A stretch of 64,000 nucleotides of DNA from Amphiscolops sp. MND2022 (Eukaryota): NCBI GenBank assembly GCA_964187785.1, contig OZ076417.1, positions 22,816,001 to 22,880,000 of the forward strand, given 5' to 3'. Below, in pieces: positions 5,837-50,010 of this stretch. The position numbers and the translations under genes were made by a program. The first letter of the stretch is position 1. Each line of letters begins with the position of its first letter. The notes under the pieces were generated by a model, which worked only from the letters and a program-made list of their open reading frames with translations, was not told the origin of the DNA and searched no databases.

Positions 5837-6109
5837 TCCGCATGCTTCCGCTAACGCCGCATTGATCGCTTTGTAGCTGTCTAGTAGGTCTTGTTACCTT
5901 GATTTGTCTATCTGCTTTCAGCATTTCGTAAAAGCCTAGTAATTTTTCTGACAGCTGCTGGATGTAGTTGCGGCAATAGTTGACAAAGCTTATTTATCTT
6001 TGCACTTGCTTCTTTGATTTCGGGAATCGCACGTTTGCTAAGAATTTTTGGAGTTTGTGATCTTGAGGGCGATTCCTTGCGGTGTTATAGTTCTTCCGAG
6101 GAACTCGGC

Positions 6110-17925: not shown

Positions 17926-18062
17926 GTAGAATTCCAGTAAGTTCTTAGAAGGTTAGAGTCAAAGCAGCTGGTGTAGAATTCCAGTAAGTTCTTAGAAGGT
18001 TAGAGTCAAAGCAGCTGGTGTAGAATTCCAGTAAGTTCTTAGAAGGTTAGAGTCAAAGCAGC
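17926..18062. repeat. Tandem repeat, 47-bp unit, about 2.9 copies
   Basis: gtagaattccagtaagttcttagaaggttagagtcaaagcagctggt repeated head-to-tail with identical units. Confidence 0.95.
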
Positions 18063-22072: not shown

Positions 22073-23868
22073 TTAGTCGAGAATTCTGAAGTCAGGATTT
22101 GCATTAGGTCTCGGGTTAGGTCGCAAGTTGTATCTTCCCACTTTTCTAGAATTGTATTCAACAACTATAGGAGGTAGTTCAGGGGTTTTGGGCGGTGGTG
22201 TTAGAATATAGGGGTCGTCACTGACATCCAGATTAAATGACGTAACGTTATCGGAGGATGTTTTATCCCAATCAGAATTTTCAACTGTGGCTGTTTTAAC
22301 CACTTCGTTGTCAGCTGTTGTTGCGTCAGCTTCCGTCTTGTCTGTGATCTCCGTAATTGTTGCTTCTTCTGACGAGTTTTCTGTAGGCATTCCGAACAGA
22401 ACTTCTCCGAAATCGGTTTCCCCAGCTTGAGCGTACCAATCATTGTGGGTTGTTTTAACCTCTGGGTCTGGAATGTAATCTTCTCGTCTGACTGTTACAA
22501 CAGACACTCGCTGATTGGACGCATATAGCCTTAGGGGAATTCTATGGAGTGTTTGCGTATATCGTGTACCCGTTCGACGTACGACGTAATTGTTGTTTGA
22601 AAGCACTTCAACGACTACGTAAGGACCAGTCCAGATGCAATCCTTGAAAGCGAATTTCATTGACTGATTGTCCGCTCTCGGGTCCGCTCTCGGTAGCAGT
22701 CGTCGTTGACTTTGAGTGGTGTAGCAGTCGCTTTCTTGTCGTAATATTGTTTGTATTTAAGGTAGGACTGCATTAGGTTGTCTTTGGCGGCTTGTGTATC
22801 TCTGCTATTTGTAGCTGTAGTTCATCCGTTAGATCTTCGTTATTGTCTTTCTTCCATTCGGGTTTTAAGCCAAGTTTGATGTCCAGGATGTTGTACAGAA
22901 TGCGTCCGTGGAGCACTGTCGTAGATTCACAGCCTAAGCTATCGTGATAGCTTGTGTTGTAGTTCATGACTGCTATTTGGACGTATTTATACCACATTGA
23001 ACGTCTCTCTCCCGTTGATATTTTGAACGAAGTTTTCAGAGAGGCGTGTGTCCTTTCTAAATGCCAATTGTTTGGGCATGTTTCGTCGATGCGTGGTTTA
23101 TCTGTATGTCAAGTGTTTGGGCAGTTTAATTGACTACCTCAGATCTGAACTGTGATCCCTTATCCGTTAGTTTGACAGTTGGTAGGAAGCAATGTCGTGT
23201 CATTACATCAATGATGCAACGTGCCACTGTTTTTGGTGTCATGTCTTGAGTTGGGCACGCGAAGAGGTAACTTGAGAAGACATCCATCATCGTGAGGATG
23301 TGTTGATATTTATTGGATGAAAGTAGATTTGGCAGTATATTGACTTCTAGGCAATCCTGTGGTCCCATTGTAAATTCGGTGTTGCTCAACATTTTGGGAC
23401 GTATTTGTCTCGTGTCAATTCTCTTGTTGGAAATGCAAGTGGACAACTAATTACCCAGGCGTTGAGTTTCAGTGCAAGCCCCAGGAAGTAATACTTCGCT
23501 CGGCATTCTTGTATCATTTTTGTGATTCCTGGGTGTTCATTCGTTTTCCCATGTAGGGTAGACAGCAGTTCAGGAACTATGTGTTTCAGAATTATGACTT
23601 GATTATGCGTGACCGATCCGTCTTCTCCGTAATGTTTCCGCATAAGTACGCCATCTTTCATGATGATTCTTTGTTCGTGGCGGAGTAGAATCCTTCCTCT
23701 TGGATCTGTATTTAAGAGATGCTTGTCATATTCTTCGCAGAGTATTCGCAATTTTAGGGCTTTAAGGAGAAGATCAGCATCTTGCTCGTTTCTGATTCGT
23801 GCATTTTCTTTAATTGCCCCGAACGAGTATACTGCGGAGTTGAGCGGTACTTTGATAGCTTCTGTCAC
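22073..23868 (-). pseudogene. pol: Gypsy integrase region, copy D
   Basis: HPGITKMIQECRAKYY; LEVNILPNL; TDKGSQF; WTGPYVVV; YNLRPNPRPNANPDFRILD. Confidence 0.92.
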
Positions 23869-23953
23869 TTTTGTTTATAGGCCTTTTTCGTGTTCGTCAA
23901 TAGCACGTTGTTTGCTGAGTGCTTTTCCGACCAAGAGTTCCTGTTCTGATTCT

Positions 23954-25445
23954 TCAATTTTCTTCTTCGTCTGCCAGGAATAAAAGTTGTTCTTCGTCAG
24001 CAACGTCTGATGATTGTAGGTTGACCTCTATTGGTGATGTTAGGATGTCGTCACGTAATTGCAGTTGCACTTCTTCTTTTGGGGTGAGTTCGAGTCTTGA
24101 TAGAAAGTCTGCCGCCGTATTTTGGGAGCCTGCTACGTGCATTATACGGAATTTGAATTGGTGGACATAGTCGCAGGCGTTCCACAGTGCAGGTGGCGCG
24201 GTTTTTCTTTGGAAAAATCTCGTCACCGAACGGTTGTCTGTCAGGACCAGTGTGGTATCGTTGATTCCCATAAGATGTGATTATATTCAAGGAATGAATG
24301 GTTTATAGGCAAAAATTTGTTGCAGTAAATTGACATTTCAGTTGTGCGGGTGAGAAAACACGCTATCTAAACGCTACTGGTACGAAGGTTTTCTTTTTAG
24401 AGATTTTTTTCCGTTCGTCGTTTTCTTCAATCATAAGAGCGTAGCCTGATGCACGAAAACTTGCATCCGTCACTAAGACGTATTGTTTGCCTGCTATGGG
24501 TTGTCTGAGTGTCACTCCACAGGCCTCCGCTAGACTGGCGTTGATTTCTCTGAAATTGTCGACGAGTTCTTCCGAAATTCTGATTTTGGAGTCGGCTTTT
24601 GGAAGTTCGTACATACCGATGAGTTTTTCTGACAGCCGCGGTATGTAATTTTGGCAGTAGTTTACGAAGCCAATGTATTTTTGAACTTGTTGTTTGGATT
24701 TTGGGGAACGAAGTTTGGAGAGAAAGTTTTTGACTTTTTGGTCCTGCGGGGCTACTCAGTCTGGAGTGATGGTTCTTCCGATGAATTCCACTTGTGTTAC
24801 TCCAAAATGGCATTTTTCGATGGTCAATTTTAGTCCTGCTGTTCTGAAGCACTTGAAGACTGCTCTGCTGTTTTCGATGAGCTGTTCCGTTGTATTCGCG
24901 GCTATGCCAATATCGCCAACGTATTGTGCGCACTGATATGCTTTGATTACGGAGTCAAGATACACTCGCATGAAGCTCGAGAAGGCTGATAGGGCTCTGC
25001 TTAGTCCTTGGGGTAGGCGACGGTAGGTAAACGTCCTACCAGCAAAATTGAAAGCCAGTAATTCTCCTGACCTTTGGTTTGCCATTTGGAGGCAGTGGTA
25101 CGCCAGGGAGCAGTCGAGCTTGCAGAACAGTTTTTTCTCTGCTAGGTGTTGCGCCGCATCTGAAAGTGTGCTGACAGGGCAGTTGTTGTTAATGTAGGCA
25201 TCTGCGATGAGTGCTTTGATCTTGCGCAATTCCAGGAGTAGTCTCAGCTTGTCGTTGGGTTTCCGTTGTGCAAAGATAGAACTGGCATACTTGGAGAAGG
25301 GGAGTGTCGTAATTATGCCGTATCGGTACATGAGGGCTAGTTCCACCGTTAGGTCTTCTTTGAGATTGATCGGGACTGGTAGGCGTTGTGTGTACAAAGG
25401 TATGTCATCTTGTGGGGTTAGACTAACTTTAAATTGCGTATTCAT
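23954..25445 (-). pseudogene. pol: Gypsy reverse transcriptase plus RNase H, copy D (YVDD altered to YVGD)
   Basis: KLDCSLAYHCL, LPQGLSRA, AQYVGDIGIA, VTDASFRASGYAL, TDNRSV, ADFLSR. Confidence 0.93.
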
Positions 25446-25924
25446 CTCAATATCTAGTCTATGGCGAGCGAAGATATCATTGAATTCAGTAATTGTAGCT
25501 TCTAGGTTTTCACGATCTTTTCCCGTAATTAGTGAATCAGTCTATTTGAACATTGAGAGAAACTTGTTGCGGGATTCTGTGTTTTCAGTTGGATCGAGTA
25601 ATTCAAGTTCGGCTAGTTCCGGTAATTCTTTCAGGATTCTCTTCTGAATGGGCTAGTGTGCTTGTTCGTTTCCAGGGTTTTCTGGGGTTGGGAAACGAGA
25701 ATATCTCCTCGTTGTCTTCGGGTCGCTCCACTTGCATCAGCGCATTGATGTACGTTACAACATCGTCGTGTTCTGTTAGGAGGTTAAGTTGACCTTGCAG
25801 CTATGTCAACCGGACGGATCATTTTCGTTTCTTCCGGTTTCAGGATTTGTAGTTCAGCTTCTTTGGTGTCTGCGGGTATTGTATAAGGAAAGTCCGTTGT
25901 ATTGGCGATCTTTATTGCTACCTT

Positions 25925-26758
25925 TTAGTCTCTTGCAGTTGTTATTGCCGGGGCTAACATTAGTTTCGTGCATTCGTCGAACTGTGGTAGGGGTTGGATA
26001 GTCCCAGTTCTTGAGTGATCAGTAATCACTGGTATGGATGCGTAGACGATACGGGTAGAATGTGCAGGTATCGCGTGTTTTGCATCCGTTTTGATCACGA
26101 TGGGCTTGAGGTTGCATTTCTGCATTTCATCGGTGAGTGCCATTGTGATTTGGGTTTTTGGGAAGTCTTTTGTTCCTTGGGCTGTGTGTAGGATTGCTGC
26201 ATGTTTCCGCAGGAATGCTAGTCCTATGATGGGGAATGACGTCTGGTTCATGACAAAGAACGTTTCTTCAAAATTGTAATCCCCTCTTTTGAACCGTAGA
26301 GTGTACGTTGCAAGTGGTTGTGCTAGTTCAGCTTTAGCGTACTGAACTTTGAGGGGTGGTGGTGCCTTATTTATGACGCATTGGCTGGCAGCTTGTCTGA
26401 ACTTTTCAGCGTCCCTTTCACTAATAGCATTAATATACGCACCTGAGTCGACTAGCGCATCAATTTTGACGGTGTTGAATTCAACTGGTAGAAAGAGCAT
26501 GCGTTTTTTCTTTTTAAGGGCTATTGCCGACATTAACGGAATGTAGTCGTCGTCTTTGTCATGTTGGATGAGTTCTTTGATGACATCTAGATCTTCGGGT
26601 GGTGTTGGGTGACATTCTGCTGTTTCTTCGTGGTTGTTCGTCATTGCTGTGGCTGGCTCGGTTTGTGGTGGTGATGAGCAGAAGAAGCGTTCTCTCGCTA
26701 TGTTTTGCTTGTCGTGCCCATACCGTTTTGCCTTCAATGCAGATGATGTTTTCTGCAT
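25925..26758 (-). pseudogene. pol: Retropepsin-like aspartic protease, copy D
   Basis: VKIDALVDSGAYINAIS...FPIIGLAFL. Confidence 0.9.
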
Positions 26759-26812
26759 CTATTGGTGTGGACGTGATGGTGACTGGTACTGTCGAAGACG
26801 GTGCTGTCTTTT

Positions 26813-28594
26813 TCAGGATTGGCGACGGAGGTGATGGGAATTTTGTTGTTTCCGTTGACTGGGCTTGGGGTTTGGGACTTGAATCTTGAAGGAGAGTTTG
26901 TCCGTATCGTATATGGTCGGTTCATCCCATGGATCGCATCTGAAGTCCTTATCGTATATATAAATTCGTCCAGTTTTTGATTCTGGCAGAGGTCGTTTGA
27001 GTGTCGCATAGTTGTCGGGCGACTCCGTTATCCATTGGGGTTGTGGTGTTGGGTTTTCTGGGGGTCTGGCATTATGTCTGAGGATCATGCCTACGTTCCA
27101 GCGTCTCTTCCAATCTTGGGTTGGTTCTTCGTTGCATTCCGTCATGACATCATCTTCGTAGCGATTTGGGTATCTTCGATCGTATATGCCCTCGCGTCTA
27201 CAGTTTCCAGACGTCCAGAGAGGACGTGGTAGGCACGGGCTGTTCACTCATTTTGTTGGTTGGTATGGTAAATTCTCGCTTTCTTTTCCTGGGATCATTT
27301 GCCGCATTAGCTCCGTCCCAACAATTTTCACTTTTGTGCATTTTCCCTCACGTGTCGCACTTGGATTTTGGTACTTCATTTTGGTTTGAGTCAGCGGTGC
27401 CCGTTTTTGTTGCGTAATAGCGTTCTTTCCGTAGTCAGCGACCCTGTGCTTTGTAGTAGCTATATTTGCCACATTGGAAACAATAACCTCTCTGTTGCTG
27501 TTCCTTTTTGTGTTCCGTCACTACAGCGTCCACTGTGTTGAGTGGGACTAGGGTCTTTTCGTCAGGCGCGCCTAGTCCGTTTAATCGCATCTCTCGTTCG
27601 AGATGTAGGACTACATCGTTTTAGGGCTTGTCTTCTAGGTATGCCCTGTTGAGGATCTTTTTAACGTGATGCGGTATTTTTGCGTATATGACCCTGTCGC
27701 TTCAGAACCGAAGGCTTCTTTGGCAGTTTTCTGCAGAGTGTCCAGGAGTTTGTGGAGTTTTTGTTTTGTGGGTGTAAAATGCAGTGCATCCCATTCACAT
27801 CTAGCTTTTGCAGAGGATTGGAAATCCCCAAAACGACGTTTGAATGCCGTTATAACTTCTAGGATATCGTTTTTAGCATCCTCAAGATTGCAGTACGCTT
27901 GAAGTGCGTTTCCTCTAAGTAGCGAGTTGAAGTAGTTGATTTTTTGTATCTCAGTTAGATGAGGGTTTACTTTGATGTTATTTCGGAATAGGTCCTCAAA
28001 AAGTTCAAATTTCTCGGACTTACCATCGAAAACATGAAGCGAAGCAGTGAGTGCTTTCGGCATCGGGAGTAGATTGGAGGATGAGAAAGTTTCCAGCTGA
28101 GGCGAACAGTATTTTAGATGTTGAAGGACGCTCTTTTAGCGGTTCACTAGGTACACGTTGTTGTTTCGGTCGCTTTGTGGGTTGATTTTTAGAGTCATTG
28201 AGGACTCCTGTCACCATGTTACGACTGTTTACCGGAGTTGTTTTGAACTTAGTCGTAGTTGATATTTTTACAGGTGTTGACGTTCTAGCTACGGAGATGT
28301 TTTCTGTTTCAGAGTCAGAGTCTCGGTCTTCCAGATGAATGGGACGTTTTTTACTGAAAGGTGCTATTAGTTTGAGCATTTCCTTTGATTTTCTGCTAAT
28401 ATCTTTGCTAGATCAGACATAATTTCTTTTCTGAAAGACGTTATTGTTTCGCCTAAGTTCTCAGGTTGCATTCTAGGGGACTTGCTGGAACTTGCTACAA
28501 GGTTTTCAGGAGGATTATTTTCAGTTACTGAGGTCTCAAAATCTCCAGAAACTAGCTCAGCTACCGCTTTCATTTTCTGACTTCTAGCTGTCAT
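26813..28594 (-). pseudogene. gag: Gypsy gag, copy D (frameshifted)
   Basis: MPKALTASLHVFDGKSEKFELFEDLF; degenerate knuckle CFQCGKYSYYKAQ near 27460-27490; homologous to copy C gag. Confidence 0.87.
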
Positions 28595-30529: not shown

Positions 30530-31335
30530 TTGATAAAAAAATTTCCCACAGGCGAAAAAACTCCCACACTGTGATCAACATTTGGGAATGTGGGCGAAAA
30601 CATCTCCCTGGCGCTCAGAAAGTTTCATTTTGCCCAAAGTCTCACAGCGCCAAAAAATGTCCAACTTTGCCGAAAAGCCCTATTCCCGATATTATTACAT
30701 TGCTGACGTTATTAGCTGTTTTTGTTCTTTGACAGTTACACTTTTCCTATGTTTATACTTTGACGAAGCTATAGCATATCTTGATATATCAGAAGACACT
30801 CGTTTCCATACCTTTGTACATTGAGACGAGTCGTCTGCCAATCAGAATCGAGCACGAAACATCAGTCGGAATTGTGGATAAACTATACCGATGGCAAATA
30901 TATTATTCCGCAGGCGGATAAAATTTTCCGCATGCGAAGAAAATATTGCGGGGGCGGGTAAAATTGTTCCCGACGGCGGCTGGCATCCAAAAACAGCAAT
31001 TTTACCCAAAGTCTCACAGTGCCGAAAAACTCTACAACCTATCATAATACATTGCCGAATCTATTCCCGAAATAGATTCGGCAATGTATTATGATAGGTT
31101 GTAGGGTTCCAATCTTTATACAGCACATCTTTATACGTTAGCAAACAATCGGTTCCATACCTTTATGCATTGAGTCTAGTCATCAGCCAATCAGAATCGA
31201 GCATGACCCGAGTCGGCAGCCAATGGGTACACACCCACACTACACGACTCGAGTCGTCAGAATCGAGCCTAAGCGAATCCAGGGGTGGAAGACCCTTCTC
31301 GGCTCGTGCCGAGTCGCTATAGCCTATCTTAAAAC
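30530..31335. repeat. Diverged tandem duplication (about 350-370 bp period) containing a perfect 34-bp inverted repeat at 31032-31104
   Basis: cccaaagtctcacag at 30633 and 31005; ttccataccttt...cattgag...gccaatcagaatcgagca at 30804 and 31153; perfect hairpin with a 5-nt loop. Confidence 0.85.
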
Positions 31336-31389: not shown

Positions 31390-32570
31390 ACTCCTCTGTC
31401 AAGACCGAAATGACTTTCACCAAAAAACACAATATTGAAAAACCCAACAAAAAACGAAACGAAAAATCTAAAACACAGACTCCAAAGGCAGTACCCAGAA
31501 AGACCCTCAAAAATGACCAATGCCGTTACTGCAAAGTCACACGATGACTGATTGTCCCAAACTAGCCAAACGGCGTAAACTTGAGGAAGACCACAAAGCA
31601 GAAAAAAGTCCGAATTGTAACACACCAGACCATGAAGAGGGAAACTTTTTCCGGCGCAAACATGGAAAATCGCCCACCGAAGTGGAACCTAACAGAAGCT
31701 CAAAAAAAGTTTTTGAAACCTATAAACAAGCAAGAAAACCAATAAAACCTAAAATAGATCAATCACAACAATCCTCCTCTGAGGATTTAAACAAGAACGG
31801 CCACCTCCTAATGAACACCACTCTGAGTTAAACAACGCAAAACCACAGGACGACAGCCAGCGTCCAGTGGACACAATCATCATATTGTTCGAACAACTAA
31901 CTACAGAACCAGACTCAACACCCCAAGAAGCTCCAAACCTGCGAACTCCCACAAGAAGCTTTATATGAACTCTGGCGAGATGCACCTGACAACAACTTCA
32001 CCAACACTCCACAAAACACTTCATCAAACACAAACAACACACCCTAAACTCACAACACAAAAACTCTCTCTTGCAATGACCGCTTTTAGATGAAGACATC
32101 TCTAACCATATACTGTTTGACAAGGAACGAAATTTGTCATACTTACCAATTTCAACCTCGCTAACGATAAACGAAAACGCCACGTTTATCACATGCCAAC
32201 GGACATTGAACAACTCACGCTTGACGGTCTAATAGACACGGGAGCCCTCACACGCGCAATCTCTGAACAAGACCTCAACAAAATCAAATTACTTGCCAAT
32301 GCAGCAATAAAAGAAACTAGAACACTGCCAAATTTTCAAATCATGGTCGACAACAATCAGTTAGAGGTCCCCATTGGCACCGTTTTAGTTAAATTTGAAG
32401 TGCCTGCCTTCATGTTAAGAGAAAATTCTTTCATGGAAAATCTACCAAATCCCTTCATTGGCTTATGTTTCCTTAGAAGGAATAATGCCATCTTCAATGT
32501 CACCCAAGGCATCTTAACCTTTCCCAACCTCTCAATGCAACTTAAACCAGATACCCAAACATTGATTTTG
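31390..32570 (+). pseudogene. Isolated Gypsy fragment: gag C-terminus plus aspartic protease
   Basis: Knuckle remnant CRYCK..SHTMTDCPKL; LTLDGLIDTGALTRAIS...IGLCFL, similar to the family 1 protease. Confidence 0.85.
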
Positions 32571-33250
32571 TTTTCTGCAGATCACAGATGACGTCAACAG
32601 ATTGATACTCGGTTCTTTGAGTCTGGTTTATAATCTAATTTATAAATTAACACTGTTAAGTACAGTCCTGTGACAAAAGAATGGAACTCCTGTTTGGTAA
32701 TAAAGTTTGGCACGCCGAATGAGATTGTGACTTTTTCAAAACCTGTCACATTCCCGAAATATGATAGAAAGAAAAATATCTTGGATTTTTGTCTAGTTTA
32801 CATTCCTATAATTTTGGAAACACTAAAACGAATGAGACAAATTTGCGAGAAATAACTTTCACATGTAAATCTTTGGAAATTGAGTTTTGACCTAATAACT
32901 TGACAGATGTCATACTAAACAAAAATTGACACTTTATAATTAAGATGCTGACATTTACTAATGTTTTCAGTGAAAAAAAATTTTGTTATAAATCTTTGAA
33001 TGAGATGTAATCAAATGTAATCACTGAAGTAGATACGGTAACTCTATAATCAGAAGAATAACTCGAATCTTATATTCAAGAAGCCTTCTCATCTAAGAAG
33101 AGAAAGACCAGAATCTGAGATCTCAGTCATACTAGAACTTGTTGAAATCAAGATAGCTACGAACAGAGTTTTGCTCAAGACTTAGAAACTTTTTATGTGT
33201 AACTTGAAAAACCTAAAACGAAACTTATACACTGTTTTAAGTAGTGAATT

Positions 33251-33266
33251 TGGCGCGATCACGACA
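33251..33266 (+). promoter_or_regulatory. Candidate tRNA primer-binding site (TGGCGCGATCACGACA) just after the LTR-like segment
   Basis: A TGG-starting motif directly 3' of the LTR-like sequence and upstream of gag. The cognate tRNA is not verified. Confidence 0.55.
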
Positions 33267-33457
33267 ATTCTCTTCTCTCTTCCTCTTGTTCCTCAAATTT
33301 TCTCCTCCTGTAAATCTTTTCTCAACATCTTCATACGCTATTTCTGTGTTCGACACACAGTCTCTCATCCTCTTTTCATCATCTACCTAAAATTGGATTC
33401 GTGTTGATATGGTTCTGACTACATAACAAACGTAATTCCTGTCAGTTATTCTTCTGT

Positions 33458-33706
33458 TCCGTTCCAACCACTTTTAAAGTGATACGTGTTGGTAATTCTT
33501 TTCCGTTACAAACACAACGAAAGTGATTCGTGTTGGTTTAAATTACTCCGTTCCAACCCCCATAATGGTGATAGGTGTTGGTTGAAAAAAGTATCTCCGT
33601 TAAAACCACTGCATCAGTGATTCGTGAAGGTTTCATCTTAACGTTCCAACAGCAGACGTGCGATACTTGTTGGTTTTTTATTGTGCTATCCAGCGATCAC
33701 TGCTGG
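33458..33706 (+). repeat. Array of five ~45-bp hairpin-forming repeats plus a sixth short hairpin in the 5' leader
   Basis: Consensus tccgtt-CCAAC-cac-N7-gtg-at(a/t)c-gt-GTTGG-t; units start at 33458, 33502, 33547, 33596 and about 33640; CCAGC/GCTGG hairpin at 33690-33706. Confidence 0.85.
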
Positions 33707-35242
33707 TTTTTTTCAGGTTCTAGTCGTTCGAATCAACTCGTTTGCGTTGGCACACCTTTTGTACAACAAAGTTTTCATTCAACCATTTGTAGTACAACTC
33801 TTTAACACCTTCTCATTTATCATACATTCCTTTTTCCTAGACAGTGCTAACAATATTACAAGCAAAATATTTTACAAATTACGAAGGAACCACACATTAA
33901 AAGTACAAAGCTATATCATAATATAGATTTTGTTACAACCTATAATAACAGAACAATAATCATAGAACATTACATAACCCTTTCTATAAATGCCTTCAGC
34001 TGATGATCTAGTACACTTCTCTGGTTTTCCTTTGGATTTATCGCAGGTCTTGCTCTTTTCTTTGACAAATTTTTGGTTCCTTTTATACCCCAATTCTAAC
34101 ACAGTTTTCTACACAAACCCCAACACAGTTTTCTATCTATTTCACATTTCTAAAACTCTATGTTACTCAAAATAATACTCTCCTTTTTGGTCTTTTCGGA
34201 ATATACATTTTGTTCTTTGATACCATATGTAACTAATGAAATTTTACTCCTTTTTTATGCTCTTTTTCTATTTTCCTCCAAATCCTCTTTGTAGAACAAT
34301 TCTTCCCATGCCGTACAATTTTCAATACAGAATATCAAATTATCCACTACCTTCATCCTTTATTCAAACATAATAATGCTTTAAACAAACATATTTTTAT
34401 GCAAAACTAAAATCACACCTCCGATACAAAATGCTTCCAACTCCATTTCAACTGGCTTCACCTCAACATAGAAACGTACGTACGTACGTTCAATAACACA
34501 AGATATCAAACGACTTTTAGATATCCTTATCTTTCAAAACACAAAGGCACTTCCATTTGAAACAGAAGCACATTCCATTCATACACTTCCATTGTTGAGA
34601 GAACATTTGGACCCATAATTTTATTACATACTCTATGAACCTCTCGATAATAATACAGCGCAAAACCTATTTCAAAAAATTTTTAACCCAGTTTCCGACA
34701 TCAACTCTGGAACATATTATCGAACAGTTTATGCACAAAGTATTCCAATACCAATTCAAACTGTTTTTGTCACATAGTCAGACAAACAAATCGAATACAA
34801 TTAAAATCTAGACCACATCTTTTAAACAAACCATCTCACCTAGAGAGTTTTAAAGATAAACATGACTATTTCGATGTCAAGACGTCGAAACAAAAAGTAA
34901 AAGACAAGGAAACCCTCACTACTGGTTACAATAAGTGACACAATTCCAATACAATTTCTTCCAAATTATAAAAAGGCAGTGAAGATAGTATACCTTAAAT
35001 CAATATCTTCTCTCAATTTCTACTCAAGAATTTTTAGTTCAACTATCAATTACTCTGAAGAGAAGAAGATCAAGCTGCTTATATCAACTTTCCGCAAAAT
35101 TTCATAAGTACAGAACTTTGGCCGTTTATCATATAAGAAGAATGTAAACACTTTCTTCACAAAGATCCTACAACAGTGCAAACACCTTTTTTTGACATTA
35201 TCTCTTTTGATACTTTCTTCATTATAGAACACTCAGAAACAT

Positions 35243-37440
35243 TTGATAGAAGACCATATTTTCACTAACACTCATATTTACACTGATAATAGTTCAGACA
35301 ATCAATATCCGGACTATATTATTAGTAGACCACAAACTGAACAACATGAAACAATTCATCCAGATCCATCACATTTATCTGACGAAACTTTACAACAAGT
35401 TCAACAACAAAATCAAAATACGATTACTTTTGCTACTACGTTAACGATTCCAGATCAAAATACTACAGATACACATAGCTTTACAATCACTACAGATTCA
35501 GACATTCTGTATATTCCTACAAGACGAAAAACTGAAACTAATGCTAACTTGTTTCAAAGTAAAAGCGACACTATGATACATCCACTTTAAACACACAAAA
35601 TTTTAATACTACACATTTACAAACGTCTTCTCAGCAAGTACAACGAACTTATGATCCACCTCCAGTGCCACCTGAAATTTTCGCGAGTAACATTCCTCAA
35701 CTCTCCACAGCAAGGCTCATCAAATTCGAATAACAACACTCTACAAAACACTAACCAAACTCAACCTCAACAAGTGAACACAAAACCACAAACAACTCTT
35801 CGTACACCATCATAGACTCTAGTTCAAATTTCTACTAAATAACAACCTCTTTTCACTATTCATACGATTCGTAATTATTCACCATTAAAACCTACAACTT
35901 CTAGGAAACTTTCTAGACCTCCATTACCTACCTCTCCGAACAATCCACTTTCATGAAACGTAACCAGTACTAAAATGAATAATATACAACAACCATATCA
36001 CTCATCTGTAACTCAAATTAATAACACCTCTCTTCCAACAAAGTCCCTCTCTTACTCACACATATTCACATCCTTCCAATCATATAGAATCTTCACTAAG
36101 TCCTTCAACTATTAAACGAACAAACCCAAAGAGTACCATCACTACAACTTTACCACTTTCCAATACTCATAATGTACCTCCAAATCTGAATATGAATTCT
36201 CAACCAATGCTTTCTTCGACAATACCTATTTCCACTATATCTAACCCAACATATATGAACTCATCTGCTTTCACTTCAGAACCTATTAAACCCTTTGATG
36301 GCTTGGATCAAAATTATACATCTGAAGATTATCTACAACAAATTGAAGCACTAGGATGCACTAGAAGCACTACAACATTTTCACTAGGGTTACAACCTTC
36401 AGCTGACCATGAATATGAAATTTTTGCACGCTCGACTTATGGCTTTCTTACAATGTTCATTAACTGGTACATCCCTTATTTGGTACCTTCGCCTCAATGA
36501 TACTTACAAACGAGACTGGTCTGGTTTTGTAAAAGCTTTTAAAAAACAATTTTCTTCTCAAAATAACGCTTTTTGCGGTCAAGTCGAAGCAGTTACACTT
36601 GTTCAAAAGGATAATGAGGCAGTTCTTCACTTTGCCTTGAAAGCTTACAACTAGTTGAAAAAGGCTGGTGTAATGAAAATGCCTTAACAATAAACCTCAA
36701 ATATAACGAAATTTTTTAAAAGGATTACCAAAAACCTTAAAGACTGCAAATGAAAGATGAGTATAACACACTTTTACTGTATTAGAACCTTCATACCCCA
36801 GTTAAACTTGTTGACGCTGAAGATTTTGCAAATGACAGAATTCGTACACACGATCTTACTCTTGAAGTGAATAACCTTGCCACCCAAATACAGTCTCAAA
36901 ATTTTGAACAATCACAAAACGCTCAATTCATGTTTACTCAACCACAGGATCCTAACAATGAAACGAAACCTGCATATAAAACAAATTGCTCCTACTGTCA
37001 TCGAACAAATCACTCTATTTTATCGTGATTCAAACAACATGAAGATGAAAGAGAAGCATATGCAAGATCAAGGTCTCCACAAAAATCTTTTGTACAAAAT
37101 TTCTGTTCCAACTCCAATGACAAAACAAAACGAAATGGCGACAATTCGAATGAGTACTCTAACCGACGTAGCAGTAGAAGTACAGCAAGAAAGAATTTTT
37201 ATAACAAAAATAATACTTCACAGAATAGATATGGTTCTACATCTTGCGATCAGTATACTTAAGACAGAAGTACCACTGCTCAACATTATACACGCTCTCG
37301 ACATGATAATTATTTAGGAGATTCTCGATCTTATCGTTCTCCATACATATCTTAAAGATCACCTTACAGACGAGATTCCCGTCACAGATACTGCTCACGT
37401 TCATATTCAAGAGAAAACACATTTCGAAGGTAAACACATT
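35243..37440 (+). pseudogene. gag: gag of copy A (may extend upstream to about 33990)
   Basis: PIKPFDGLDQNYTSEDYLQQIEA; CCHC knuckle CSYCHRTNHSILS* near 36985-37030; Arg/Ser-rich C-terminus. Confidence 0.8.
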
Positions 37441-37599
37441 CTAACACACTCAATACATAACAGTCACAAATTTCGAACAATCCTATCAATTTTGAAGTAC
37501 ACATGTATCAACCTACACAAATGCCTAAAGCTCTAATAGCAACCAGTTGGTTCTAGTCATTCTATTCCCACACTGCAGAAAAACAAAGTAAAAATAACA

Positions 37600-40500
37600 A
37601 CCCATCACGACTAGATAGTTCATTTCTTTTAGACAGCGGTGCTTCTACTTCAGTACTTACTTGTCATACTTATTTTACTATCGCAAAACGTCTCAGAATA
37701 ACGAGTACTAATAAAACACATAATACTTCAAACCCAAAAACTGTTGCTAATCAAACAGAAGTTCCCATATTACACTATGTTACTCTCACTTTGAATGCCA
37801 CTTCTGAAGACATTTCTCGTCAATTCATTATCCCGTTTGCAGTTGCTGACATCAAACATAACATCATTGTTTCAATACTTTCCACGAATGAAGCCAGGTT
37901 CGAAAGTTTGGATATTGAATCCAGGCCATTCTTCGGAGAATATGTACAAAATATTGACACCCAAGATTTTACATAACAATTCAAACACCACTCGAAAGAC
38001 TTTCCTAATCATACCAAAATTCATCATTAATGTCCAGAGAATACCCATAATTTTCATACAATTATAGAATTATTTCTAGAACTCAAAAACATCTAAAACC
38101 TAACTCCTCCAAAATTGATCATTTTCCTATACAAAACTATAGCAGTCTTCATTTCACAACCACACCCAACAATCATTTTTTCCCACCTTTACCTCAAACT
38201 TACTTTTCTGTCATATTACGTACAACATTCAACTTTATGGAAGCATTCACTAATGATAAACCATATACCTGTGCTACAATCCTACAAAACACTACAAATG
38301 ACATCGCAACTTTACCTCCCGGAACTATTGGATACCTTGAAGTTCCTAAACGAACGAAAAACCTAAATATTACAAAGTTCATGACATCAATTCTCTAGTA
38401 CACAATGTTGCCCATACAAACCATTCTGAAATTACAGAACCAATTCCACAAACAAAATACGCTCCTCAGTACGCACATGATACATCACACTCTCAACATA
38501 TTTCTCTACACCATGTCTATATGACTGACGTATCTACATTAAATATTAAATTAAACTCAATACACAATGTTATGTTTTCTTCTCATAAAACTGAACTTTT
38601 TTTTCTACCCTTCCAAATACAAAATAAATTCAAAATTTATCAATAATTCGTTTTTCAGTTTTCTGATCTTACAGACACCAAATATGTAACTCTTTGTAAT
38701 TTACTGGTCAAACACAAAAACTATGATGCTACTCAAAAAAGATGTAGAAAAGATTTCTACTCCGTTTCGTATTCGACTCAACCCCAATGCCCAACTTCTG
38801 AGACAATGTTCGTCTAAAGTCCCAATCATTATAATAGAAACAAAACGAATGCCCTTCTCGAAGAACTTGAAAAACACAACAATATTAAACAAATCGGTTC
38901 TTCTCCTCAAATCGGTTCTTACTAGTATTTCATCCGGTGAGAAACTCTTTGCTTTTATCAGCAGTTTTTATGGTCTCAAAGGCTTCTCCAATTTTTTTAT
39001 TGAACAAATGTTTTCATTCTTCAAAACTCTTACTGACCAAGGTTCCGCTCTTGCATATATTAATGACATTTTACTCCTTTCTAACTCTAAAGAATACATG
39101 TTCCAACTTATTGAACAACTTCATATCATAAATACAAAACACAATCTCAAACTTGCTCCTGAAAAATTCTTTACCCAAAATCTATCATACGCTTGGAAGA
39201 AATCTTTATGTTGCTGACATGCTCAGTCGTTTATTTACTAAAGCTGAATTACAAATGAATTAACTTAAACATAAACAACTACCTGCACAAATTGACTTCG
39301 CAATTTTACGAAACAACACTCTTAAACCTGTGCATTAGTTAATTAAAAATGAAGAAGTCTTACAATTTTCTATACGAAATAATGACAAAGGTAACGATGT
39401 CAATTGTCAAACCTCTTGACTTGTTCTCAATTAATTCCATTACACTTTTTCAGACACAGTTAAAAACCCCTAATAAAAAGCACAATAAATCTATTTATCA
39501 GCAACCTCTTCTACTCAATGATACTGATGTCATCAGTGATGACGAAGATCATATTTACACTAGAATTCCAAAGGACACAACTCTTTTCACACCTGACAAT
39601 ACTCTTACATTTGACAACCACTCTACTATACCAAATCCCAAAACTGATACGCTCTCTACTAATGCTACAGAGACACAGCATCATATTAAACTTTCTACAC
39701 ATTGCTCACAAATCATCACTTTTTATGACCCATCCTTCATCAAATACAAATATTGTTTTCGAGGCCTTTTCCAACCTGATGACTACTCCCTAGACTTACA
39801 AACTCAATAAGCAACAATCCCAAGACCCAGTATTCAAAGTTGTATTTTTTGACTTTCGCTAAATACAAAACCTGACTCTTTGACACCTCAAATTACTGGT
39901 ACTCCCTGTTTACATGCCAAAAAAAAATTTTCTCCCAACTTTTCATCGATGATTCTACAAACTTCATTTGCCTTTATTCAAAGCATTAAAGTACTTCTGA
40001 CACACAAACAAACCTGAATTCTAACATCCTTCAACCCACTTTTAAACTCTGTCTAGCCTTTCGTCTATTTCGAACAAATTTCAATAAACTTCATGACCGT
40101 TGTCACACTGGTATAAAAGTCACATATAACACTTTCTCACAGTACCAATATATTGCTTTTCTTGAAAATTGGCGTTCCATTTTAATACATGACTGTCTTG
40201 AATGTCAAAATAACAAGCATTTCAACCAAAAAGTTCAATCTGCTCATATACAATTTTTTCCTGAACATGCTCCCTCATTCACTTACAGAATTTCCATGCA
40301 CACAAAAAGTCCTATAAATCCTCCGTCTTAGAACAAGTCGTACATAAATGTCATTGTTGAGGCCTTTAGCCACTTTGTTGTGTCAGTTCCTATAAAATCC
40401 AACAACTCAAAAACTGCTGGTAAATCACTATTTCACCTTTGGATTATCAAACTTGGTCCACTTATCTATCTTGTTACTGATCGCGGATCAGATTATATTA

Positions 40501-41033
40501 ACACAGATATGGCACAACTCTCTACTCTTATGGGTATTCGTCACTCTCCTAGAACTCCTCACTCCCCTTGGGCAAATGGACTCGTTGAAGTTCAAAACAA
40601 AAATATTGGTACACATCTTCGTATTTTCCTTCAAAAAACCCCTAAAGATTGGGATCGCCAAGTTCATATGTACGCTTACGCCCCTAATTCACAACATCTT
40701 TTTATAAACGTTTCTCCTCGTGAAACTGTGTTTCACACATGTCCTCGAATTCCACTTACCTTTGACTTGAACCTCAATCGAGACTCAAAAAGAACATGTA
40801 TTTCAAAAAGATGTTCTGGTTTGCCTGAACATTCTCATTATGACAATACCGATTTGAACCCATTCTTTTATCGTACACGTTCGAAACACTCGCCCTCAAT
40901 GGTTTCTTGCAGTAGAAACTGCTATTTTACAAAATTGTTTTACGGTAAACTGTTCAAAAAATTAACTCTCAAGCTTATATTACAAAAACACACCATAAAA
41001 ATAAACCTATTCATCTTGGAACTTTCGTGGTAG
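37600..41033 (+). pseudogene. pol: pol of copy A: protease, internally deleted RT/RNase H, integrase
   Basis: FLLDSGASTSVL (about 37625); TPFRIRL..YINDILLLS; jump from the RT end to ADMLSR; IN core LVTDRGSDY...WANGLVEVQNK. Confidence 0.88.
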
Positions 41034-42794
41034 AACCCAATTTTTCACAAGTTCAATTTTCAGACAAACTCAAACCAAAGATGGTTCCACCTTTCATACG
41101 CATAGAAACCATTTGATACCTTATTTTTCAAAAGAACCACCTCTGTATCCTCATCTTCAAAATTTCATGCGTTTTTCAGACTCCATCAAATATGACACTC
41201 CAAAACCAATTAAATATGCAAATAGTGACTGATCCCCTTTTAACTCTGATGACACAGTATAAGATGAAACCTCTTCAGAAAAAAAACATCTTTGTTTATC
41301 AACCACCAAATCCCACTTTTGAAAATACTTCATTCACTAAAGATAACTCATTCTATGAACCAATTAGAAAATCTCATCAAAATATTTTTCCTGACAGAGC
41401 ACGCCATCCATCTCAAAATGACCTTTTAACCCCTCACACTTCGCATAATCGACAAACAAAAACTCATCGAAAGTTGTGAACAATGAAGATACACAGTCTT
41501 ATCAAAAACTACCATCCTTGATACTTCTTCTGAAACATCTCCTTCTGCTCCAAACTTACCATCTTCTAGTTCTGAATGTCAATTAACTATCATATCCCAA
41601 CCTCGCATTGTGGAAATGTTGCCTCCGTCCAAACGACCAAAGTCATACATTCTACAGACATCTTCTAGAACTCTTTTTCCTCCTACAACTTCATACACTG
41701 GAAGACCAAAAATATCTGAAAAACCTACAACTCCTAGGTCTCAACCACAAGCCGTAACAGTACAAACTCCTTTATTTCATGTACCTAATCCTGAAACTGT
41801 AACAAAATTTGTTGATTGTAAACAACCTACTGCTACTAAAACAGCACGACTACAACCTCAAAAAGATATTCTACACATACTTGACACTGAATACCCAACT
41901 ATTTTACACTTTCCCTCTTCTGAAACAGGATCCTCTACGAAATCACAAATCTATCCTACTTTAAACTAAATTAGACAGCAATTTACTCTATATAGTCTTT
42001 TAGAAACCACTTCACGCGACTACTTACCATAACAAAAATTTCAAGTTCCATCTTAGTTCCTCCACATCGGTACAACCTTGAACAACTTGCGTCACGTAGA
42101 CCTAGTTCTGATACTTCCACTCTAAACTTTTCTTCATTAAAGTAACTCGGCACTTCGTCTTTTACATCAACACGCCCAACCCCTTTCATCTGATTCAACC
42201 TCAACCCACTCCTCAGATTTTGTTCCTAATTTTACATCAGGTGTTGATACTGATTCCTTACTCTCTTCAGACGTTCAAACAGCGTACTTTTCTGGTAATT
42301 TCTTTCTGAAGTACTTATTCTTACTCCTGTAGCGCCACACGTACGAATTCGTAGTAATTATGTAGAAATTTTGTAGAAATTAAACAGAACAATCTAGACC
42401 TCCAACTCGGTTTACCGACTACCCAATACGTGTTGATGGTACAACTGTATACGAACCTCAAACTGATCCTCGTTTCACTATGCTCACAGAACGATTCATT
42501 AACGATACCGACACTCTCTCAAACAAAGAGAAGAAACAGAACTAAAAAGACTTCAAAATCCAAATTCGAACTTGAATTTGAAGTCAAAGTAAAATTTTTA
42601 GGTTTGAATCCACATCCCATACTTCACGTTCCTAAACCTGAAGAAAAAACACCTTCTGCCCCTTTCATGGTCACATACATTGAAATTCACGATGATCCTG
42701 ACGGCCCTGATATAACTTATGGTAATTATATTTTGTAACCCATACTCTGGACTTACATATACAATCTCCTTTTAGTACAAAGTTGTTCCCTTCT

Positions 42795-45133
42795 TTGACA
42801 AATATAACCTTTTCTTTCTTACTCCTATATATTATATTACACACGCTATTCCTATTGAACTAACTGATACTGATAGTTATCTCCCGCCTACGACCCAAAT
42901 ATTACGAACCTTAAGCTTTCTCATTATACCTGTGAAAAACAACATAACTTTTGTCAATTTGATCTTTTAAATGTTCTCTAGGTTCAATTAAAATAGTTTT
43001 GTTGAAAGAACTGTATAGAATCAGAACACAACAACACTTTACTTGATCCTCTAGAATGTAAAAACTTGTATAGATATCTTAATGGTCCAACAACAAAATT
43101 TTGAACAACTTTGATTACAATAGACCTTTACTCTTCTTGAAGATCATTATTTCTCAGGAACAATTGGATCAAATTCAAACTCCTTTTACTGTTTACTGGT
43201 ACTTTCACAATTAAGCCTGCTGATAAAAATTGACTTTATGATCCATTACGAAATCCTCTTCACGACTGTCCAGCCCATCACCAACTTGAAGTTACCTTAG
43301 TCAGTTGGACATTTTCAGTTTCCGAAGTAGAAGTTACAAATGATGACGCTGAATGTGTAATGATAGTTGATGGTCACACACTACCATGTTACTTCGGCGA
43401 TAGTTTTTGTAAACCACCACGAAAACTCCTTCTACCTTAGTTTGGTTTAGCGATGAATTTTGTCTCATTTTTACATTAAAAGATTTGTTGGACGAATGAC
43501 TAAAATAGAAGATAGATACTGGATTGAAACTGACTCTTTTGTACACACTTCAGTTCCTAAAAAATCGGACACCACTACTGGTATTAAAGGCACACCCTTT
43601 CCTTGTGTACATGCTCCACATACACGAAATTCACCTAACCGTAGTTTTTCACGCTACGAAGTTTTTCCACATTCTTAAACATTTTATAGTAACCCAGAAC
43701 CTTTTTATACAACACAAAATTCGGACCTTTTTGTTACATATATTGATGGTTTCAATATGCATACAGGACAGCTAAACACTCAATCTGTAATTAATGAAGT
43801 TATCTCAGAGAAACTAGTTTTCGACACCAACAAAAATAAATACGTTTTTCCTGCACTCAATGTTCCAAATATTTTTGCTATCATTGACTATGATGCACAT
43901 GTCAACACAAAAGTTGATTACGCTATTAATCATGTCTTCCACTCCATGACAAAACTAGAATTAAATACCCTTCAGAGTGAATTAGAACGAAATCAACTCT
44001 TTACTAAACTTGCAATGTCAGTAAAAACCCCTCAGCTTGCTGGATTCTTTTCAACAGGAATTAGAGGCAACTTCGTTTACATAGAAGGTTCCACTGCATG
44101 GCCCATGATTGTCCAATTTTCCTTTCAACAATATACAAAGCTGATGGTTGTTTTGATTGCATTCCCATACAGTTCAAAGATACTCTTATGTACGTTGATC
44201 CTATCACCAGACAAACCTACGATAATGCTACTCCTATAACATGTGATAATAATCCACGAAACAGTTTTGAACTAGATCCAGATGCGGATTATCAAGACTA
44301 TTACATTCTTAGACCCGAACCGATAAAACGGAAACCACAATTTATGTTCACGCCATCTCAAATTAAAACTACAATACGACCCAATGCATTTACAGCTCAA
44401 GATGCTGTTATATATTCTAATGCAGATCTTGACCATGTTTGGAACAGAATCTTATTTCCAAAACATGGTGACACTCTTCAACTTTGAGGAAAAGCTCTTA
44501 GTTACTCTTTAATTTCTTCAAATACACCAGATTATGCCTATTCTCCTCATGAAAATCCTTCTAGGACATTACGTATTGGACTACAGGATAAACTCTTTAA
44601 CTTAACCCCACTTTTTGCACCCACAAGGTTCTCTGATGCTTTTATTTCATTGTTTGGATACCCATGTTGTATCTGCACACAAGGGGAAATTTTTTGACAT
44701 TTCATTTATTACAAACAATCTTACCACTTCTTATCAAACTTTACAGAACACGTTCGATAAAGTATAACTTGAAAAATATATCACTTTTCTTAGTTCGATA
44801 GCACATGGTTTTTTCAATATTCTTACAGCTGAAATCGTCAACGACCTAAAAGATGCTCATGTACAAAGACCATTACCGTCCATTAGAAGTTCACACCAAC
44901 ATTCCTTGTCAACTATAACTGAAAACCAAGTAGTTGAATCTTCTTACAATTCAGACGATCCAACAAATCCTTCGACTAAACGTTCTGGAATTATTTCACC
45001 ACCTTTCTTTACAAAGCGTGCAAAACGAGTTCCAAAGATAGCAAAATTTAAAGTCTTTCCGAAACGGAAAAGATCCTTCAATCAACAAAGTAAAAAAAGA
45101 CAACTTCATCAACAATACTTTACCATTACATAA
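42795..45133 (+). pseudogene. env: env-like glycoprotein of copy A (class III, chuvirus-G-like pattern)
   Basis: Signal-like TNITFSFLLLYIIL; SHYTCEKQHNF; ELERNQLF.KLAMSVKTPQLAGF...EGSTAW.YDCP...CFDCIP...MYVDPITRQTY...ITCDNNP; hydrophobic TM segment near 44640-44730; basic tail. Confidence 0.8.
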
Positions 45134-49480: not shown

Positions 49481-50010
49481 TCAAAAAGGGAATTGTGGAA
49501 TGGGGGGTGTAAGAGGTTCTATTCTAATGGGAATTAGCGCTGGGGATAAAGGGGGTAAATGAAATGGGGAGGGATTGCAAAAACTATGTGGCAGGTGGTA
49601 ACGACGTTGGGGAAAACAATGAAAACGATTAGAAAAATTATGAGGGGATATTTGGACGCTTAAGGCAGGGAATTGGGCGACTTTGTACGTTGTAGATTTA
49701 AATTTGGCCAATTTGGGAGCGTTTGAAAATGGTTGACTAAAATATTTACATTTTGAGTAACTTTATCTAAATTAGCATCTCGTTCAGTTAACAATTCACC
49801 TAAATAAAGTTCGTACAATTTCAGTGCGTCGTAATACCGAGTTAAGGTTTGCTTGTAGACGGCAGTGTGGACTATTCTGTTTGTTGGAGTTCCAGCTTCA
49901 CCAAGCAGTTGAGGACGTTTTGGGTGACGGGGCTTTCGCCTTTGCAAGTCCTGGGTTAACTGTCGAACAGCGGAGGGTTTCTACAAATTGGGGGAAGAGG
50001 CGATAGCATC
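49481..50010 (-). other. Additional sense-strand ORF remnant in the 3' region of copy B
   Basis: QRRKPRHPKRP...YKQTLTRYYDALKLYELYLGELLTERDANLDKV; more GC-rich than its flanks. Confidence 0.3.

What the first reader, a model, noticed from the sequence alone, without database searches (positions are those of the whole stretch)
33458..33706. Array of 5-6 hairpin repeats about 200 nt downstream of the PBS: candidate packaging (psi) signal
Seen: units spaced 44-49 nt apart share tccgtt-CCAAC-cac-[variable ~7 nt]-gtg-at(a/t)c-gt-GTTGG followed by a U/A-rich tract. The variable cores tend to stay self-complementary (cactt/aagtg, cca/tgg, cactg/cagtg, gca/tgc). A sixth hairpin has CCAGC/GCTGG in place of CCAAC/GTTGG, a compensatory change. 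Units 2 and 4 have damaged outer stems. Known: retroviral packaging and dimerisation signals are stem-loop clusters just 3' of the PBS. Inference: a reiterated bulged-hairpin RNA motif for Gag binding, dimerisation or translation control in the enveloped element.
Basis: partly seen in the sequence, partly recalled or inferred. Interest (0 to 1): 0.7.

Follow-up and report, generated by a model that had tools for sequence, protein, structure and literature searches.

The report
Covarying bulged-hairpin array in retroelement leader
A broken, envelope-carrying retrotransposon in an animal genome has six copies of a small bulged hairpin just behind its primer site; the stems change letters but keep their pairing, so the element probably reads them as a folded single strand, most likely as docking sites on its genomic RNA, although that job is untested.

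Summary
They lie in the 1.18-kb leader between a PBS-like site (33251) and the gag ATG (34431) of a decayed gag-pol-env Ty3/gypsy element. Each unit: 5-bp lower stem, 6-nt 3' bulge, 3-5-bp upper stem, variable loop. u0 differs at six stem positions, all as three compensatory pairs; a structure model built from u1-u4 finds it, a sequence-only model does not. Over six units 5 of 10 pairs change on both sides (0 of 500 shuffles); only a 6-nt bulge fits. Against: folding is no better than shuffles (z -0.07), pairing does not fix the strand, fixed-stem covariation rests on u0, and no DNA of other copies was reachable. Best reading: a reiterated RNA docking module of the genomic RNA; Gag/NC packaging about 0.4, host-protein RNA control about 0.25. 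A new variant of known leader elements; not shown to be psi.

The parts
32745..33248 (+). Inferred 5' LTR (about 504 nt; starts TGTCAC, 3' end an imperfect inverted copy)
   Evidence: Sequence. No second copy in the window, so the LTR is inferred from its ends and the site behind it, not shown by a pair.
33251..33266 (+). PBS-like site, tRNA-Arg(UCG/UCU)-like
   Evidence: Starts with TGG right after the inferred LTR; its complement resembles the 12-nt Arg_UCG_UCU tRNA end listed in PMC13524379 supplement 1 with one mismatch and one 2-nt indel (compared by eye). Host tRNA not available.
33270..33390 (+). Pyrimidine-rich tract between PBS and array, containing a separate 6-bp hairpin at 33344-33360
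   Evidence: Sequence; fold -5.8 kcal/mol.
33382..33407 (+). u-1: probable partial unit (bulge and 3' arm clear, 5' flank lost, short upper stem)
   Evidence: 3' half hit by the sequence-only model, E 4.4 in the window and 0.083 in the leader; 6 of 8 Watson-Crick pairs plus one G-U; not found by the structure model. Uncertain.
   Evidence: Second-best non-training hit of the structure model in 64 kb, absent from the sequence-only hits; 8 of 8 pairs; spacer behind it matches the spacer behind u1 at 7 of 8 bases.
33458..33492 (+). u1: intact unit, 10 of 10 pairs
   Evidence: proposed fold is its minimum-energy fold (-6.2).
33502..33536 (+). u2: unit with two broken lower-stem pairs and unpaired core (6 of 10)
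33547..33581 (+). u3: unit with one broken upper-stem pair (9 of 10); core pairs C-G, A-U
33596..33630 (+). u4: lower stem largely broken (1 of 5), upper stem intact (5 of 5); core pairs U-A, G-C
33640..33673 (+). u5: one base shorter; one compensatory pair in the upper stem; folds with a 6-nt bulge shifted by one base
   Evidence: Best non-training hit of both models; folds.
33690..33717 (+). Short hairpin (33690-33706) followed by U7 and an acceptor-like CAG|G; related to the units but not a full unit
   Evidence: z -3.2; not hit by the unit model; the T7-CAGG word occurs once in the window, both strands (noticed after the fact).
34431..41250 (+). Decayed gag-pol (many stops and frameshifts); gag ATG at 34431
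   Evidence: Frame from 34431 begins like P0238, a 1556-aa relative representing 2407 sequences; Pfam Retrotrans_gag, RVT_1, Integrase_H2C2 (below cut-off) and rve (above); stops counted.
44065..44484 (+). Fragment of env (class III / gB-like fusion glycoprotein family)
   Evidence: Pfam PF24664 Monjiviricetes_fusion, E 2e-7, 29.8 bits against cut-off 27.

Best explanation
The array is a tandemly amplified, structure-selected module of the element's genomic RNA leader. Each 44-49-nt unit folds into a 5-bp lower stem, a 6-nt bulge on the 3' side, a 3-5-bp upper stem and a loop of free sequence and length. The stems act as scaffold (letters change, pairing stays); the bulge (first two and last base invariant in 6 of 6 units) and the unpaired GUU just 5' of the stem are the likely recognition surface. 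Six such sites 160-420 nt behind the PBS give avidity for a protein, most likely the element's own Gag through its single CCHC knuckle, so that the unspliced RNA is selected for capsid assembly. SHOWN: repeat, position, covariation between units. INFERRED: that the folded strand is the RNA (from the element's polarity only), that broken pairs in u2/u4 are mostly decay after insertion, that the ligand is Gag and the job packaging. Odds: pairing is under selection about 0.8; it acts as RNA about 0.7; Gag/packaging about 0.4.
For: Structure model from u1-u4: of 28 hits (E<=10, 64 kb, both strands) the two best outside the training set are u5 (17.6 bits) and u0 (13.0 bits), both adjoining the array; the sequence-only model's 23 hits do not include u0. 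Scored on unpaired positions alone, 1254 of 1,020,552 background registers equal or beat u0 and 0 of these 1254 have 8 of 8 pairs; u0 has. Four compensated pairs among the 8 fixed pairs of u0-u5 against 0.56-1.36 expected, p 0.0005-0.015 by transition bias. Variable core: 7 of 9 cells Watson-Crick in u1-u5 in four different pair types, chance 0.26 per cell, p 0.002 uncorrected. 5 of 10 pairs change on both sides, 0 of 500 shuffles, slid controls 0-1. Bulge length 6 gives 24 of 29 paired cells and 6 extra pair types; the ten other lengths give at most 12 and 2. Position between PBS and gag. 44 of 120 listed Gag relatives carry one CCHC knuckle. Uncompensated stem changes (8 of 96 positions) fit the at most 12-13% decay implied by integrase divergence. 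In Rous sarcoma virus psi, stem structure rather than sequence was needed for packaging (PMC5035970, passages).
Against: Whole array folds at shuffle level (z -0.07; 92 of 200); single units z +0.2 to -1.0. In leader context inter-unit helices compete and the lower stem is formed in at most one unit per setting. RNAalifold on a MAFFT alignment gives only -0.48 kcal/mol and another upper register. Without u0 the fixed-stem covariation is not significant (1 pair, p 0.20-0.45). No G-U pair occurs in u0-u5 and the minus strand folds as well or better, so nothing in the pairing selects RNA(+). Units are paralogues in one copy, six sequences only; u0 was seen by eye before the model was built, and the alignment is fitted to the structure. 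The lower stem has a rival register four bases on (18 of 30 against 24 of 30). Nothing links the array to Gag; 76 of 120 Gag relatives show no knuckle (lengths not checked; many are short).
Confidence: 0.4

Rival explanations
1. Same RNA structure, but the ligand is a host RNA-binding protein and the job is nuclear export of unspliced RNA, translation control across the 1.18-kb leader, or control of splicing at the acceptor-like site that directly follows the array.
For: All covariation evidence applies equally. The leader is long, holds 11 ATGs before the gag ATG and a pyrimidine tract; a T7-CAG|G word, unique in the window, lies 34 nt behind u5. Some errantiviruses carry IRES elements (PMC3383448, passage). 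Reiterated internal loops as export-factor sites in the MPMV CTE: recalled, not read here.
Against: No transcript data (none listed). Donor-like sites upstream are weak (3 with up to 2 mismatches). Export elements are usually 3' (recalled).
Confidence: 0.25
2. Neutral tandem duplication of a chance hairpin; compensatory changes were made by hairpin-templated (template-switch) mutation, not by selection.
For: Tandem 5'-UTR repeats are common: 19 of 49 Drosophila LTR elements (PMC8872304, passage). Folding at shuffle level. Fixed-stem covariation rests on one unit. u2 and u4 have lost lower-stem pairs, and share changes, which may predate insertion.
Against: Template switching copies an arm through and should erase or fill the bulge; u0 has compensations on both sides of an untouched 6-nt bulge, and the bulge length is constant in six units while loop length varies. 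The bulge and flank are as conserved (0.83-0.86) as the stems (0.83) while the core is free.
Confidence: 0.15
3. Double-stranded DNA element: repeated sites for a host DNA-binding protein (insulator, enhancer or heterochromatin tag), as in the gypsy, ZAM, Idefix and Tirant leaders.
For: This is the known role of 5'-UTR repeats in errantiviruses: 12 Su(Hw) sites in gypsy, HP1 and RpL22 binding in ZAM/Tirant/accord (PMC3383448, PMC8872304, PMC5408687; passages). Position is the same.
Against: A duplex-reading protein gives no reason for paired changes in both arms or for a self-complementary core of free sequence. The inverted half-sites differ in sequence in u0.
Confidence: 0.12
4. The hairpins act in single-stranded DNA or antisense RNA, for instance as pause or protein sites at the end of minus-strand synthesis, just before the PBS is copied.
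For: Minus strand folds slightly better (z -1.15 against -0.07); u0's upper stem forms at 0.75 on minus against 0.06 on plus; DNA parameters give the same helices; no G-U pairs in u0-u5.
Against: The differences are not significant (26 of 200 shuffles as good). G-U pairs occur on the plus strand in u-1 and in the short hairpin behind the array. No precedent found in the papers read.
Confidence: 0.08

Closest known systems
Retroviral packaging signals in the 5' leader, especially Rous sarcoma virus M-psi / mu-psi (three stem-loops, UGCG tetraloop bound by an NC knuckle; PMC5035970, passages)
   Same: Stem-loop cluster just 3' of the PBS and before gag; stems kept by pairing rather than sequence; element encodes a CCHC-type Gag; the bulge reads A-UNCG-U in u1, u2, u4 and u-1.
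   Different: Here one module is repeated six times in tandem; conserved bases are in a 3' bulge and 5' flank, not in an apical loop; the UNCG-like word is absent from u0, u3, u5 and would be closed by a single A-U pair that no fold predicts; host element is Ty3/gypsy, not a retrovirus; no functional data. In that paper the tetraloop mattered for NC binding but not for Gag selectivity.
Tandem 5'-UTR repeats of Drosophila errantiviruses (gypsy Su(Hw) insulator, ZAM 307-bp, Tirant 102-bp, TERM motif; PMC3383448, PMC5408687, PMC8872304, passages)
   Same: Tandem repeats in the leader of env-bearing Ty3/gypsy elements, variable in copy number.
   Different: Those are described as duplex DNA sites for host proteins; the passages read mention no conserved fold. 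The units here are shorter (44-49 nt) and show compensatory changes around a fixed bulge.
Ty3 genomic RNA cis elements (PMC11381356, passages)
   Same: Same superfamily; structured 5' end holds priming, dimerisation and packaging functions.
   Different: Ty3 dimerises through a 6-nt palindrome in a hairpin apex and its packaging sequences are stated to be not precisely defined; no repeat array. The loops here share no palindrome.
gB-type (class III) env-carrying Ty3/gypsy elements of invertebrates (PMC13524379, abstract and passages; Oikopleura Tor, PMC4402516, passages)
   Same: gag-pol-env order, class III fusion family hit, Arg-type PBS as in several elements of the paper's table.
   Different: Phylogenetic placement not tested. 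A word search of that paper found no use of 'packaging' or 'UTR', so leader RNA structures are not treated there.
Hepatitis B virus epsilon (recalled, not read here)
   Same: Lower stem, 6-nt bulge, upper stem, apical loop; a packaging signal of a reverse-transcribing element.
   Different: Epsilon's bulge is on the 5' side, binds the polymerase and templates priming; it is not a tandem array. Analogy of shape only; Rfam gave no match.

Membership tests
Retroviral-type packaging signal (psi) | Lies in the leader between PBS and gag on the genomic strand | tested here: met
   Array 33409-33673; PBS-like site 33251; gag ATG 34431. PBS and LTR are inferred.
Retroviral-type packaging signal (psi) | Secondary structure kept by compensatory change | tested here: met
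   Between paralogous units of one copy only; fixed-stem signal depends on u0.
Retroviral-type packaging signal (psi) | Stable, well-defined fold in context | tested here: not met
   z -0.07; competing inter-unit helices; RNAalifold -0.48 kcal/mol. The copy is decayed.
Retroviral-type packaging signal (psi) | Conserved in independent copies of the element | tested here: inconclusive
   No DNA of relatives could be fetched; the related element in the window lacks its leader.
Retroviral-type packaging signal (psi) | Selective binding by cognate Gag/NC; necessary or sufficient for packaging | not testable with these tools
   Only the presence of one CCHC knuckle in 44 of 120 Gag relatives.
Dimer initiation signal (kissing loop) | Conserved 6-nt palindrome exposed in a hairpin loop | tested here: not met
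   Apical loops are 3-5 nt, different in every unit. A 6-nt palindrome occurs once, in the 5' flank of u5.
Errantivirus 5'-UTR DNA repeats (insulator/enhancer type) | Tandem repeats in the leader of an env-bearing Ty3/gypsy element | tested here: met
Errantivirus 5'-UTR DNA repeats (insulator/enhancer type) | Sequence-specific binding of a host protein to the duplex; insulator or enhancer activity | not testable with these tools
   Paired changes argue against duplex reading alone.
Any Rfam family | Match to a covariance model | tested here: not met
   32500-34500 against 4227 families: one hit at E 4.5, outside the array.
env-carrying Ty3/gypsy element (gB-type) | gag, RT, integrase in Ty3/gypsy order, followed by a class III env | tested here: met
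   Pfam hits in that order; rve and PF24664 above cut-off, gag, RT and H2C2 below; tblastn of intact relatives.
env-carrying Ty3/gypsy element (gB-type) | Paired LTRs; placement in the errantivirus Pol tree | tested here: inconclusive
   No 3' LTR in the window; no tree was built.

The most novel reading that the evidence does not exclude
A high-copy family of gB-type enveloped Ty3/gypsy elements packages its genome through a modular, tandemly amplified psi: six or seven identical-geometry bulged hairpins whose 6-nt bulge (a UNCG-like word closed by one A-U pair, forming a compact three-way junction) binds one single-knuckle Gag each, while the acceptor-like site behind the array lets the translated RNA drop PBS and psi together. 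This would be the first defined packaging element of an animal Ty3/gypsy and would reinterpret some 'DNA' leader repeats as RNA signals.
Probability: 0.15. Interest if true: 0.8.

Novelty: new variant of a known kind. Interest (0 to 1): 0.5.

Why it matters
Packaging sequences of Ty3/gypsy elements are poorly defined even for yeast Ty3 (PMC11381356, passage), and the leader repeats of enveloped gypsy elements have been read as DNA insulators or enhancers. A 35-nt module with a fixed bulge, natural compensatory variants side by side and a family of hundreds to thousands of protein-level relatives is a small, directly testable candidate for a Gag-RNA recognition site in the sister group of retroviruses. 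If it is neutral or DNA-level, it is one more leader repeat.

Tried and rejected
Other copies of the leader: no genome is held; no sequencing run was listed for 33000-34000 (no evidence either way), so no reads could be laid; exact unit patterns gave 0 stretches in viral contigs and metagenome contigs; integrase queries gave 0 confirmed loci of 8, 93, 44 and 55 candidate stretches in viral, metagenome, viral and genome contigs. Chance gene calls over the array in other copies: a 76-aa open frame found no candidate and 3 weak hits to long repetitive proteins with no tblastn match to the window; rejected. Coding repeat: units read as 12 similar codons, but spacings 44, 45, 49, 44 break the frame and all six frames have stops; relatives' Gag starts at 34431; rejected. 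Tandem Repeats Finder does not report the array at score 30. Rfam: nothing. The short hairpin at 33690 and a weaker candidate at 33733-33750 as further units: the first is not hit by the model, the second does not fold as supposed; rejected as full units. Exact PBS-word search of the errantivirus table: 0. Host species: not determined; one paper search on a guessed taxon was seen as a listing only and not pursued. Earlier findings of the scan: none for this genome, this DNA or the integrase. Literature: no paper held all of 'LTR retrotransposon, covariation, stem-loop, array, primer binding site'; searches (listings) showed no such array; the library lacks most subscription papers, so absence from print is not established. 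Supplements of the other papers were not opened.

Full report
Context. The finding lies in a decayed LTR retroelement on the plus strand. Pfam finds gag (36388), RT (38690), integrase zinc finger (39990), integrase core (40332) and a class III fusion glycoprotein fragment (44065) in that order; only the integrase core and the env hit pass the curated cut-off. Intact relatives exist in large numbers in unnamed ENA assemblies: 526 integrase hits among 636 candidates, 120 listed, clusters of up to 415 members among the five looked up, and a 1556-aa Gag-Pol representing 2407 sequences. That protein aligns from residue 2 at 34445 and its first residues match the frame from the ATG at 34431. A 504-nt LTR-like stretch ends at 33248 and is followed by a TGG-initiated site whose complement resembles the Arg-UCG/UCU tRNA end tabulated in PMC13524379; no second LTR is in the window, so both are inferred. 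The leader is therefore about 1180 nt. The host is an animal by gene content (an EGF-repeat frame); the species was not determined.

Observation. Four 36-nt units at 33458, 33502, 33547 and 33596 form a repeat family, and a fifth at 33640 aligns with one gap. In register each has a 6-nt flank, a 5-bp lower stem, a 3-bp upper stem continued by two pairs of free sequence, a 3-4-nt loop, a 6-nt bulge on the 3' side, and a U/A-rich spacer. u1 forms 10 of 10 pairs, u3 9, u5 8 of 9, u2 and u4 6.

A missed unit. 49 nt before u1 lies u0 (33409-33445). It differs from u1 at six of 16 fixed stem positions, and the six form three compensatory pairs: two in the lower stem (C-G to U-A, A-U to G-C), one in the upper (C-G to U-A); the bulge stays 6 nt. 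I saw it by eye and then tested it. A covariance model from u1-u4 only, run on 64 kb, both strands, gave 28 hits at E<=10; the two best outside the training set were u5 (17.6 bits, E 0.04) and u0 (13.0 bits, E 0.56), the next 12.1 bits. The same alignment without structure gave 23 hits, u5 first among non-training hits and u0 absent. E-values of these models are rough. Independently, scoring only unpaired positions, 1254 of 1,020,552 background registers reached u0's score, and none of them had 8 of 8 Watson-Crick pairs (one had 7); 26 registers in all had 8 of 8. A further partial unit at 33382-33407 is suggested by its 3' half and 6 of 8 pairs plus one G-U, but the structure model misses it; I left it out of the main counts.

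Covariation. With each unit's observed number of changes thrown at random on the 16 fixed stem positions, 4 compensated pairs were seen in u0-u5 against 0.56, 0.72 and 1.36 expected for no, 60% and 90% transition bias (p 0.0005, 0.0014, 0.015); for u1-u5 alone 1 was seen (p 0.20-0.45). The two free pairs are Watson-Crick in 7 of 9 cells of u1-u5 and 8 of 11 with u0, in four pair types, at a chance of 0.26 per cell (p 0.002, register chosen after looking). On the model-fitted alignment of six units, 81.8% of 55 cells pair and 5 of 10 pairs change on both sides; 0 of 500 shuffles reach this and slid registers give 0-1 (the fit favours the structure, and u5's upper stem was left unaligned). On plain coordinates, a bulge of 6 gives 24 of 29 paired cells and 6 extra pair types, the ten other lengths at most 12 and 2; the lower stem gives 24 of 30, its best slid rival 18 of 30. 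Bulge and flank are as conserved as the stems (0.83, 0.86, 0.83), with the first two and last bulge bases and the last three flank bases invariant in 6 of 6.

Against. The array folds no better than its shuffles (z -0.07; minus strand -1.15), single units neither. In the leader context neighbouring units pair with each other and the proposed lower stems are mostly not formed. RNAalifold on a MAFFT alignment, which misplaces the gaps of u0 and u5, gave -0.48 kcal/mol and another upper register. In isolation the lower stem forms at 0.96 or more in u0, u1, u3, u5 and not in u2, u4; the upper stem at 0.87 or more in u1, u4, u5 and 0.33 or less in u0, u2, u3. Part of this is decay: gag-pol is full of stops, and 74% integrase identity to a 209-member cluster implies up to 12-13% change per site, against 8 uncompensated changes in 96 stem positions. 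But u2 and u4 share changes, so weak even-numbered units may be ancestral. No G-U pair occurs in u0-u5, and minus-strand and DNA parameters give the same helices: the strand is inferred from the element's polarity alone. No DNA of any other copy could be obtained, so the decisive comparison across copies is missing.

Mechanism. Free stems, a free loop and a fixed bulge plus flank are the pattern of a protein-docking module on a single strand. Six of them shortly behind the PBS suit Gag: 44 of 120 listed relatives carry one CCHC knuckle (in this copy the motif ends in a stop), and a single-knuckle Gag would gain from repeated sites (inference). A host RNA-binding protein (export, translation, splicing at the acceptor-like site at 33707-33717) fits the same evidence. 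Kissing-loop dimerisation is not supported, since loops share no palindrome, unlike Ty3 (PMC11381356, passages). I put selection on pairing at about 0.8 and Gag-mediated packaging at about 0.4.

Known systems and novelty. Tandem leader repeats are common in LTR elements (19 of 49 in Drosophila; PMC8872304, passage) and are described as DNA sites for Su(Hw), HP1 or RpL22 (PMC3383448, PMC5408687, passages). Structured leaders that direct packaging are standard in retroviruses; for Ty3 the packaging sequences are not precisely defined. The survey of env-carrying gypsy elements does not use the words packaging or UTR (PMC13524379; abstract, passages and one supplement searched). Rfam has no match. 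Ten searches of the held library showed no covarying tandem bulged-hairpin array in a Ty3/gypsy leader (bear on this; listings only), but the library is incomplete. Unchecked notes of this scan describe covarying hairpin arrays in other retrotransposons, so the theme recurs. Verdict: a real feature, better supported than first stated as a conserved fold, unproven as psi; new variant of a known kind; interest 0.5.

Noticed in passing
window 33707-33717 (+): T7-CAG|G, a splice-acceptor-like word, directly behind the short hairpin that follows the array; the only such word in the window on either strand. If used, PBS and array would be cut from the translated RNA.
   Followed up: partly
window 33502-33536 and 33596-33630: u2 and u4 share changes (first lower-stem base, bulge variant) that u1, u3, u5 lack: possibly a two-unit duplication or alternating strong and weak units; a slid lower-stem register pairs 18 of 30 cells.
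   Followed up: partly
window about 48000-64000 (-): A second, related C-rich gag-pol element on the minus strand (tblastn), tail to tail with the first and with its leader outside the window; it holds an internal duplication of about 3.5 kb at 70-74% identity (52136-55673 against 55672-58325).
   Followed up: partly
window 30770-31206: Near-perfect inverted repeat with 38-nt arms (31028-31108) next to an 88-nt direct repeat pair (30770, 31119).
   Followed up: no
window 12868-14910 (-): 681-aa open frame with 14 calcium-binding EGF matches, a host gene exon among retroelements.
   Followed up: no
window 17926-18062: Exact 47-nt tandem repeat, 2.9 copies.
   Followed up: no
window 3394-9243 and 22076-28072 (-): Two decayed copies, about 67% alike, of another Ty3/gypsy lineage with a DUF1759-type Gag; the unit model finds no array in them.
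   Followed up: partly
window 34160-34291 (+): A 44-codon hydrophobic upstream frame in the leader, 271 nt before the gag ATG; may be a decayed small ORF.
   Followed up: no
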